A stretch of 64,000 nucleotides of DNA from Schmidtea nova. Taxonomy: Eukaryota. The stretch spans positions 241,056,001 through 241,120,000 of the forward strand of contig CM097882.1 in assembly GCA_044892505.1 (NCBI GenBank), read 5' to 3'. Position numbers and translations under genes: made by a program. Shown here piece after piece: positions 46,423-61,837 of this stretch; positions within the stretch are counted from its first letter, which is position 1; each line of letters opens with the position of its first letter. The notes below the pieces were generated by a model. That model was not told where the DNA came from and did not search any database. It was given only the letters and a program-made list of their open reading frames with translations.

Positions 46423-47835
46423 CTACTCTAACCATCCTTTCGTTGACTTCGTGTTCATCACTGTTGTACTTGCTTTCTTTTCGATTTCCAATTCTACGTA
46501 TAGGTTGTCGTCGTACAACATTTCCCACATTGTTTGGTGTGGTATGAATTTTGGTTCTCCAGTCGCTAATGAACATTCTGTGGTTGGTCTTTTGTAAGCT
46601 TCGTGCTTACCATCAATTTTGAATACTCTCGCTATTGTTTCTTTCGAGTTTTTCACTCTCATTATGGCCTTTGTTTCTAGTGGCCATTCTAATATGTCGT
46701 CGTAACCACCTTTACACAACGCGAAGAATAACGACACATGCGTTTCCTTTCCTGATCCATCTCCATTTGGATAAATTCTCATCCGGACTTTGTATCCATT
46801 TTTCCACAGATAGAATGGTGGACTTGTTACCGACACTTGACTTCCTGCTTTTGCTGCTGCGAATTTGTCATTGAAGTTCTTGATTTTCCATACATATGGT
46901 GCGACCGGTAAATTCTCGATATCCTCTGTATCTCGTATCCACATTTGATGTCTCACGTTTACTTCTTTTACCAATGTCTCTATGACTTTGATTTTCTCCA
47001 TCATTTTCTCTCTGGTGAGCTTGAATTGCTCTCTCGTTTCCAGTAATAACTCCGTCATTATCCTCTGAGATTCGATTTCTTTTCCCAGTTTCTGTATGGT
47101 TTGCTCCATTCCGTTCAAATTTTCTGTTAGCATCTCGGCGTGTTGTACCGTTTCCGTTTCCAAATGCTCTTTCATCTCTTTGTTCGTTTTCTTTACTGCA
47201 CATCCTTGTTTACTCCATACGCACTTTCTTGGTCTTGATTCGCATTGTTCCCAGTGTTCTCTCAACATCACTTCTTCTCCGGTTCCGCAATTACTTGGAC
47301 AAATTCCTCTGAATTTTCCACAAACTTTCTCTTCTGCTACGTTGAGATGTTCATTTTCGATTACTTCTCTCGTCTCTCTTTGTTCGCAGTATTGACACTC
47401 TATTATCTATGCTTTGCACTCATCCTTGTGCTTTTTCGACTGCTTGATGGTTATCGTCTGTTGACACTTTTCACATATCGCTTTCTTGTTTTCGCATTTT
47501 CCTAGATGTTGTCTTAGCTCGATTATTTGTCCTTTCCATTCACAGGGTTGGTTTATACATTCTGTTTTTATCTTCCAGATCTCCTTTTGTATTGCTTTGT
47601 CTGGTTTCGTCTCGTTGATTAGTAGTTTATCGTCACACTCTGGACACTTTCTTGTCTCACTTTCACTGATTATTTGCAATATACACTTGGTGCACATCCT
47701 GCATCCACATTCCGTTTGTCTCGGTTTTAACAGTAAATTTTTACACTTTACACACGTCACATTTACTCCCCATTGTCGATTCTCTCCTCTTAGAATCTCG
47801 ATTGTTTGGTAATCTGCTTCGCTTTCTGCTCTCAT
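46423..47835 (-). pseudogene. Full-length TRAF-like protein (RING, TRAF zinc fingers, coiled coil, MATH) with one in-frame TAG at 47407-47409
   Basis: CVKCKNLLLKPRQTECGCRMCTKC...CPEC; CINQPCEWKG; read-through IIECQYCE...CPSNCG joins in frame to the 282-aa ORF with VWKIKNF, SPPFY, GYKVRMRIYPNGDG, HVSLF, DDILEWP. Confidence 0.95.

Positions 47836-61837: not shown

What the first reader, a model, noticed from the sequence alone, without database searches (positions are those of the whole stretch)
46423..61837. Cargo converges on one theme: death and innate-immune signalling
Bcl-2-like, TRAF, ankyrin, Ubl and surface FN3 modules are the classes large DNA viruses use to block apoptosis and NF-kB signalling. 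Their co-occurrence in one retroelement suggests selection for keeping the infected or expressing cell alive, possibly to mutual benefit. The functional link is inference.
Basis: inference. Interest (0 to 1): 0.72.

Follow-up and report, generated by a model that had tools for sequence, protein, structure and literature searches.

The report
Burro retroelement with death-pathway cargo
This is one copy of a 29-kb, envelope-bearing Burro-type jumping gene, likely from a planarian flatworm, whose extra genes (a host-like TRAF, a Bcl-2-like fold, ankyrin and fibronectin repeats) are kept under purifying selection and likely help keep the producing cell alive, an idea already published for Burro elements.

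Summary
The interval is the body of a 29.4-kb Ty3/gypsy LTR element of the planarian Burro kind (LTRs about 99.8% identical, 4-bp target duplication, at least 122 close copies). TRAF and ankyrin are firm. FN3 is supported by fold. The Bcl-2-like domain is likely real but has lost the BH1 signature. Ubl is weak.

Cargo is under strong purifying selection: dN/dS on shared variants is 0.02 for Bcl-2-like, 0.12 TRAF, 0.14 ankyrin, 0.23 FN3, with 0 shared stops against 76 expected. Neutral decay is therefore refuted.

The 'one theme' claim is overstated. Only about 17% of accessory codons are pathway-specific, and unnamed cargo is equally constrained (0.154 vs 0.146). The TRAF is host-like, planarians have no clear immune NF-kB, and this family lacks the BIR domain behind Burro1's reported benefit. 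Inserted copies lose TRAF at the same per-codon rate as the polyprotein, so selection is shown for the replicating lineage, not the host.

The apoptosis/ubiquitin theme is in print (2019), and a stem-cell benefit is reported for Burro1 (2026, seen only as cited). Possibly new: the FN3-membrane cassette, an env swap, and a pol-less IAP+TRAF sister family. Expression and function are untested.

The parts
41064..44372 (-). 3' LTR (TG...CA, 3.3 kb). The 5' LTR lies beyond the window at window-equivalent 67154-70462 (L011); 4-bp target duplication; element 29.4 kb. Holds two open frames of 231 and 206 codons with no family.
44578..45099 (-). Accessory ORF, 174 aa, hydrophobic N-terminus and one predicted membrane segment; unassigned
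   Evidence: shared-variant dN/dS 0.20
45176..46333 (-). Accessory coiled-coil ORF, 386 aa; unassigned
   Evidence: dN/dS 0.16
46423..47835 (-). Full-length TRAF gene (RING, zinc fingers, coiled coil, MATH); broken in this copy by an in-frame stop at 47407-47409
   Evidence: dN/dS 0.12
47925..48275 (-). Accessory ORF, 116 aa, coiled-coil-like; unassigned
   Evidence: dN/dS 0.08
48399..50360 (-). C-terminal cassette of the polyprotein: signal-like hydrophobic segment, four FN3-fold repeats with conserved cysteines, a second hydrophobic segment, membrane anchor and short tail
   Evidence: dN/dS 0.23
50778..52340 (-). Two ankyrin-repeat clusters with a helical spacer, directly after integrase
   Evidence: dN/dS 0.14
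52608..53651 (-). Integrase (H2C2 + rve); a frameshift separates it from RNase H in this copy, near 53650-53810
53906..55228 (-). Reverse transcriptase and RNase H
   Evidence: RT 92% identical to a family with the Burro1-like layout
55346..55648 (-). dUTPase-like region between protease and RT (weak)
   Evidence: only PDB hit is a dUTPase at E 1.4; same position named for Burro in PMC6431247
55661..55978 (-). Aspartic protease
   Evidence: RVP E 5e-9
56291..58363 (-). Env-like fusion glycoprotein in frame between gag and pol, with internal signal-like segment and membrane anchor
   Evidence: Monjiviricetes_fusion E 4.5e-71
58451..58948 (-). Bcl-2-like helical domain (likely); BH2 kept, BH1 signature lost
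   Evidence: dN/dS 0.02
59465..59701 (-). Ubiquitin-like repeat (weak support)
   Evidence: dN/dS 0.02
60278..60535 (-). Ubiquitin-like repeat (weak support)
   Evidence: dN/dS 0.06
61577..61828 (-). Third possible beta-grasp repeat (weak support)
61864..63636 (-). Gag with CCHC knuckles; a frameshift near 61860-61900 separates it from the rest of the polyprotein in this copy

Best explanation
This is a recently inserted, now broken copy of a Burro-type endogenous retrovirus-like element whose captured accessory modules are held under purifying selection, likely because they keep the producing cell alive and tune its TRAF/ubiquitin signalling long enough for the element to replicate. Shown: the anatomy (LTR, RING gene, one ~5,085-aa polyprotein gag-Ubl-Bcl-2-like-env-PR-RT-RH-IN-ankyrin-FN3-TM, then four small genes including TRAF, LTR); high copy number; purifying selection on every cargo part tested; decay of TRAF in inserted copies at the polyprotein's rate. 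Inferred: the element's protease and host signal peptidase cut the polyprotein; the TRAF (RING ligands intact) and the lone IAP-type RING act as E3 ligases or competitors in host TRAF complexes; the Bcl-2-fold protein damps death or stress signalling, probably as a scaffold and not by classical BH3 capture; the FN3 cassette is displayed at the cell or particle surface. The benefit is first to the element; any gain to the host would be a by-product.
For: Layout matches the published Burro description (env in frame between gag and pol, Ubl and BCL2 before env, dUTPase-like region, ankyrin; PMC6431247 section 7). At least 122 TRAF and 138 Bcl-2-like matches in this subfamily (lower bounds). In 13 copies, shared variants give synonymous:non-synonymous 39:2 for Bcl-2-like, 84:30 TRAF, 127:38 ankyrin, 105:76 FN3 cassette, and 0 stops against 76 expected in named cargo. 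Against a sister subfamily, silent sites are near saturation while well-aligned cargo proteins stay 40-73% identical. Death-pathway modules recur across families in this genome: Bcl-2 before env, BIR-RING beside TRAF, IAP-type RING upstream of gag. MATH domains of two element families form one clade (98/95) apart from 20 presumed host rows. With 26 of 138 copies keeping the whole polyprotein open, 86% of TRAF genes should be intact by equal-rate decay; 99 to 105 of 122 (81-86%) are.
Against: No expression or functional data. Unnamed cargo is as constrained as the named (0.154 vs 0.146), so selection does not single out death signalling. The Bcl-2 assignment rests on weak scores, and the BH1 motif is lost. 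Ankyrin, Ubl and FN3 are generic. A viral TRAF can be pro-apoptotic (PMC3352826, abstract). The 12 extra copies were minus-strand copies present in both hit lists, so they are biased to well-preserved ones. Equal-rate decay cannot exclude host selection spread over more than 100 redundant copies.
Confidence: 0.58

Rival explanations
1. True mutualism: the host keeps this family expressed in stem cells because its cargo improves survival and regeneration, as reported for the IAP of Burro1.
For: A sister family is reported to protect stem cells from caspase-mediated apoptosis (PMC13465017 passages citing Lee et al. 2026). A pol-less family in this genome keeps TRAF and IAP under purifying selection. 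The Bcl-2-like domain is as constrained as env and integrase.
Against: This family has no BIR domain (none of the 150 BIR rows lies at this locus). Inserted copies show no excess of intact TRAF. BURRO1 is PIWI-silenced and rises when PIWI is lost (PMC8532177, passages).
Confidence: 0.2
2. The cargo mainly serves the element's own particle cycle (polyprotein sorting, budding, attachment, integrase targeting, ubiquitin handling), and the death theme is an impression drawn from domain names.
For: Ankyrins are fused directly behind integrase. The FN3 cassette has signal-like and anchor segments like env and is duplicated in the sister subfamily. About 83% of accessory codons are generic or unassigned. 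The BH1 motif is lost.
Against: A full-length TRAF with intact RING, IAP-type RINGs and BIR-RING genes recur across families and have no obvious particle role. A family lacking gag, env, RT and integrase still keeps TRAF, IAP and ankyrin open and under selection.
Confidence: 0.2
3. The cargo is neutral hitch-hiking DNA carried along by a recent burst.
For: This copy has two frameshifts and a stop; most copies have a broken polyprotein.
Against: dN/dS 0.02-0.25 on shared variants with no shared stops; conservation across subfamilies with near-saturated silent sites.
Confidence: 0.02

Closest known systems
[quoted passage not shown] 2018; both seen only as described in PMC6431247 section 7)
   Same: Giant Ty3/gypsy element near 30 kb; one ~5,000-aa polyprotein; env in frame between gag and pol; Ubl and BCL2-like before env; dUTPase-like between PR and RT; ankyrin; TRAF/MATH. 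RT is 92% identical to a family in this genome with the Burro1-like layout (MATH inside a 4,706-aa ORF).
   Different: Here a full-length TRAF is a separate gene downstream of pol, not a MATH inside the polyprotein. There is no BIR domain, and a lone IAP-type RING lies upstream of gag. A four-repeat FN3-membrane cassette ends the polyprotein, which that section does not list. No Burro1 sequence was on hand for direct comparison.
Burro-like element of Dugesia tigrina (PMC6431247)
   Same: ORF1 of similar length (5,140 aa) lacking MATH, with TRAF-C in an accessory ORF; two CCHC knuckles
   Different: There the accessory TRAF ORF is upstream; here it is downstream
Burro1 B-IAP host-transposon mutualism (Lee et al., Dev Cell 2026; not held, seen only as cited in PMC13465017)
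   Different: The reported effector is RING+BIR, which this family lacks
Viral Bcl-2-fold, ankyrin and TRAF proteins of large DNA viruses (poxvirus examples recalled; ISKNV ORF111L, PMC3352826 abstract)
   Same: Host-derived folds carried by a mobile genome; poxvirus Bcl-2-fold proteins without BH1 that act as signalling scaffolds (recalled) are the best analogy
   Different: Analogy only. The TRAF here aligns over its full length with presumed host TRAFs, no F-box/PRANC tail was detected on the ankyrins, and ORF111L promotes apoptosis

Membership tests
Ty3/gypsy LTR retroelement | Paired LTRs (TG...CA), target duplication, primer-binding site | tested here: met
   the same PBS motif in 20 of 142 loci; its likeness to a tRNA-Pro site is recalled
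Ty3/gypsy LTR retroelement | Domain order PR-RT-RH-IN | tested here: met
Burro | Giant size (about 30 kb with LTRs; internal region up to 25 kb) | tested here: met
   29.4 kb, internal about 22.8 kb; slightly under the '>30 kb' quoted in PMC6431247
Burro | Single ~5,000-aa polyprotein with env in frame between gag and pol | tested here: met
   open frames of 5,076-5,114 aa in 26 of 138 copies; split by two frameshifts in this copy
Burro | Accessory MATH/TRAF, BCL2-like, Ubl, ankyrin | tested here: met
   TRAF and ankyrin firm; BCL2-like likely; Ubl weak
Burro | Sequence identity to a deposited Burro/GYPSM1 sequence | not testable with these tools
   no repeat library on hand; assignment rests on layout
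Burro1 (B-IAP-bearing) | BIR domain with RING | tested here: not met
   no BIR in any ORF of this element scanned; BIR-RING is in another family
Bcl-2 family | Eight-helix Bcl-2 fold | tested here: inconclusive
   low-confidence model with about eight helices; unanimous but weak Foldseek ranking; VIA search filled by a coiled coil
Bcl-2 family (canonical BH3-binding pro-survival type) | BH1 NWGR-type motif (recalled) and BH2 W-x-x-x-x-GGW | tested here: not met
   BH2 GGW kept; BH1 position not conserved, whereas presumed host genes keep it
Bcl-2 family | Binds BH3 peptides / blocks death | not testable with these tools
TRAF family | RING + zinc fingers + coiled coil + TRAF-C MATH | tested here: met
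FN3 superfamily | Seven-strand beta-sandwich of about 85 aa | tested here: met
   three of four repeats modelled at pLDDT about 55-70 and matched to FNIII; the second repeat by sequence similarity only
IkB-like or poxvirus ANK/PRANC NF-kB antagonists | Specific similarity to IkB ankyrins or a C-terminal F-box/PRANC | tested here: inconclusive
   best hits generic; no F-box/PRANC hit; absence from a list does not exclude

The most novel reading that the evidence does not exclude
Planarian Burro elements run a modular, exchangeable survival toolkit. This family would protect stem cells without any IAP, through a BH1-less Bcl-2-fold scaffold, a captured TRAF and a surface FN3 decoy receptor, while cargo-only satellites lacking gag, env, RT and integrase spread TRAF+IAP in trans under purifying selection, like oncogene-transducing defective retroviruses but to the host's benefit.
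Probability: 0.2. Interest if true: 0.68.

Novelty: new member of a known kind. Interest (0 to 1): 0.3.

Why it matters
The core idea is already published, so the finding as worded adds little. This work adds a direct test of selection on Burro cargo, which removes neutral decay and separates selection on the element lineage from selection on the host. It also shows a BIR-less family, a natural comparison for asking whether the reported Burro1 benefit is special to the IAP or general to Burro cargo. The pol-less TRAF+IAP family is the sharper lead: cargo kept under selection in an element that cannot replicate itself makes the selfish-versus-mutualist question directly testable by family-specific RNAi.

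Tried and rejected
Sequence searches for the Bcl-2-like domain found nothing useful: Pfam, PDB phmmer and profile, Atlas, and the 1.84-billion-protein HMMER scan, whose 2 hits were repeat-driven and unrelated.

VIA wide search on the 1,136-residue model was filled by a coiled coil and is uninformative. A word-index search for TRAF relatives at E<=1e-30 gave none of 525 candidates.

RNA runs: no RNA holder listed; no reads were laid. A Rel-homology search of the own genome gave no match, but no control rang, so it shows nothing. Complex prediction of the Bcl-2-like domain with a host BH3 was not available. Earlier scan findings: none.

The between-subfamily dN/dS rows for FN repeats 1 and 3 and the C-terminal anchor (0.5-1.0) were set aside because the sister has a duplicated cassette that misaligns them; the within-family value (0.23) was used.

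Rejected: neutral cargo; a host gene cluster beside a transposon (all modules lie between matched LTRs and travel together in more than 100 copies); a large DNA virus insertion (no such core genes among the ORFs scanned).

Full report
WHAT IS THERE. From about 41,000 to the window's end the sequence is about 40% GC and strongly strand-skewed in an otherwise AT-rich background, with long minus-strand frames of 590, 2,749, 1,802, 327 and 396 codons. Neighbouring DNA holds a second copy of 41063-44384 at 99.8% identity. The termini resolve to TG...CA LTRs at 41064-44372 and window-equivalent 67154-70462, with a 4-bp target duplication and a primer-binding site. The element is 29.4 kb and young. 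Pfam gives CCHC knuckles, a fusion glycoprotein (E 4.5e-71), protease, RT, RNase H, integrase, ankyrins, and RING/zf-TRAF/MATH. Own-genome searches give 122 scored TRAF matches at 89-100% and 138 Bcl-2-region matches in this subfamily plus 12 in a sister subfamily at 72-73%; both are lower bounds. In 26 of those 138 the region lies in one open frame of 5,076-5,114 codons, so the window's three large frames are a polyprotein broken by two frameshifts. The TRAF gene also has an in-frame stop that 12 of 12 other copies lack.

DOMAIN CHECKS. TRAF and ankyrin are firm. The TRAF aligns from RING to MATH with four presumed host TRAF genes and keeps the RING cysteines. In a tree of 27 MATH rows, this family and a BIR-bearing family form one set (98/95) apart from 20 presumed host rows; the tree is midpoint-rooted, so a donor is not shown. 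The four repeats at 48888-50276 resemble each other and carry conserved cysteines; three fold as beta-sandwiches and match fibronectin type III (24 matches at E<=0.001). The Bcl-2-like region has no direct sequence hit. It is collinear with, and weakly similar to, a Pfam Bcl-2 domain just before env in other LTR families, and a poor model ranks only Bcl-2-family entries in all 42 rows shown, best E 0.009. BH2 is kept; the BH1 motif seen in presumed host genes is not. That this motif grips BH3 peptides is recalled, not tested. Ubl support is weak. An IAP-type RING gene lies upstream of gag, outside the window. No BIR is present in this element.

SELECTION. I compared the window with 12 other copies, pairwise about 95% identical. 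They were chosen from minus-strand copies in both hit lists, so they are biased to well-kept ones. Variants were classed column by column and corrected for the mutation spectrum. For shared variants dN/dS is 0.024 in core domains, 0.146 in the named cargo and 0.154 in unnamed cargo. By domain: Bcl-2-like 0.02 (0.00-0.08), Ubl 0.02-0.06, TRAF 0.12, ankyrin 0.14, FN3 cassette 0.23. No stop is shared (76 expected in named cargo). Singletons give 0.12, 0.33 and 0.36. Against the sister subfamily silent sites are near saturation and well-aligned cargo proteins stay 40-73% identical. Neutral cargo is refuted. Who benefits is a separate question: the polyprotein break rate predicts 86% intact TRAF genes, and 99-105 of 122 (81-86%) are intact (counts read by hand; test). 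Inserted copies therefore show no extra protection of TRAF. Selection is shown on the replicating lineage; host-level selection is neither shown nor excluded, given redundancy.

IS IT ONE THEME? By my boundaries, 687 of about 4,141 accessory codons are pathway-specific (Bcl-2-like, TRAF, IAP-type RING), 1,421 are generic (ankyrin, FN3, Ubl) and 2,033 are unassigned. The slant is real, and stronger when sister families are counted, but it does not cover the cargo. The NF-kB half is weak: planarian Rel-domain proteins are reported as highly divergent, with no clear immune NF-kB, while TRAFs are TBK1-induced (PMC13563047, passages). TRAF/MATH genes are expanded in the host (PMC6109357, passages; clusters), and a planarian traf2-1 is reported to restrain tissue degeneration (PMC4993586, passages). 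A DNA-virus TRAF is reported to induce apoptosis (PMC3352826, abstract), so the direction of effect cannot be read from the name.

MECHANISM. Most likely (0.58) the modules were captured by Burro ancestors and kept because they let the producing cell survive and blunt stress or immune signalling during replication: TRAF and RING as ligases or competitors, the Bcl-2 fold as a scaffold, FN3 at the surface. These functional steps are inferred. Mutualism (0.2) and a particle-cycle role (0.2) remain open.

WHAT IS KNOWN. PMC6431247 section 7 (read whole) describes Burro elements with MATH/TRAF, BIR, ankyrin, BCL2-like, Ubi2/SUMO-like, dUTPase-like and in-frame env, and already says that apoptosis and ubiquitination domains are prominent and may meddle with host systems. 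PMC13465017 (passages) reports that Lee et al. 2026 showed a Burro1 RING+BIR region protecting stem cells from caspase-mediated death. That paper was not held, so I have not seen it or its supplements, nor Grohme 2018 or Jurka 2007. PMC8532177 (passages) shows BURRO1 under PIWI control. A search for Burro + LTR + fibronectin type III + Schmidtea found 0 papers, and section 7 lists no FN3; the unseen papers may. The host is inferred to be a planarian from this layout.

SIDE FINDINGS. (1) A BIR-RING family (150 scored matches) is an LTR element of about 23 kb that lacks gag, env, RT and integrase in 5 of 7 copies examined; the other 2 are interrupted, so their 5' part was not seen. It shares the primer-binding motif and keeps TRAF (dN/dS 0.15-0.18) and IAP (0.31-0.39) under purifying selection. 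An autonomous parent was not looked for. (2) The env ectodomain differs from the sister subfamily at 12-24% of conserved codons against about 50% in RT (pS 0.30 vs 0.78), which points to a later exchange of env by recombination. (3) The sister subfamily has duplicated the FN3-membrane cassette.

VERDICT. New member of a known kind; interest 0.3.

Noticed in passing
L113-L116 (G000:C1:54.61-54.64 Mb); also L125-L142: High-copy LTR family of about 23 kb lacking gag, env, RT and integrase but keeping RING, a Ubl-protease-ankyrin fusion of about 1,045 aa, TRAF, a 399-aa BIR-RING IAP and four more ORFs open and mostly under purifying selection; LTR pairs 99.8-100% identical.
   Followed up: partly
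window 56500-58300: The env ectodomain has far fewer silent differences from the sister subfamily than RT or integrase do, suggesting a later env exchange by recombination.
   Followed up: partly
L013-L016, L017-L020, L025-L028: Sister subfamily with a 5,650-5,685-aa polyprotein in which the signal-FN3-anchor cassette is duplicated; same gene order otherwise.
   Followed up: partly
L011 3146-3616 (-), just beyond the window: 157-aa gene with a lone IAP-type RING and no BIR, upstream of gag; present in all three Burro-type families examined.
   Followed up: partly
L117-L120 (G000:C1:411.00-411.03 Mb): A smaller LTR family of about 14 kb with gag-Bcl-2-env-pol in one 3,073-aa frame and an 869-aa unassigned second ORF; it carries the Bcl-2-before-env arrangement without TRAF or ankyrin.
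   Followed up: partly
L121-L123 (G000:C1:97.57-97.60 Mb): Family with MATH inside a 4,706-aa polyprotein, as described for Burro1, and a weak Pfam fn3 hit near its C-terminus.
   Followed up: partly
window 41457-42900 (-): Two open frames (231 and 206 codons) inside the LTR, repeated in the 5' LTR; the 206-codon one has relatives in sister LTRs; no family.
   Followed up: no
G000:C2:405-455 Mb (L083-L112): Dense clusters of presumed host TRAF/MATH genes, some with a single open frame from RING to MATH.
   Followed up: partly
window 3274-3912, 8617-9918, 16905-21307, 23761-29146, 37247-40778: Other mobile elements: a Tc1/mariner transposase piece, an RT fragment, and three small decayed LTR retroelements bounded by direct repeats.
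   Followed up: no
window 14004-14118: 54-nt inverted repeat, 93% complementary, 7-nt loop; also short-period tandem arrays at 322-734, 11950-12680 and 33462-33594.
   Followed up: no
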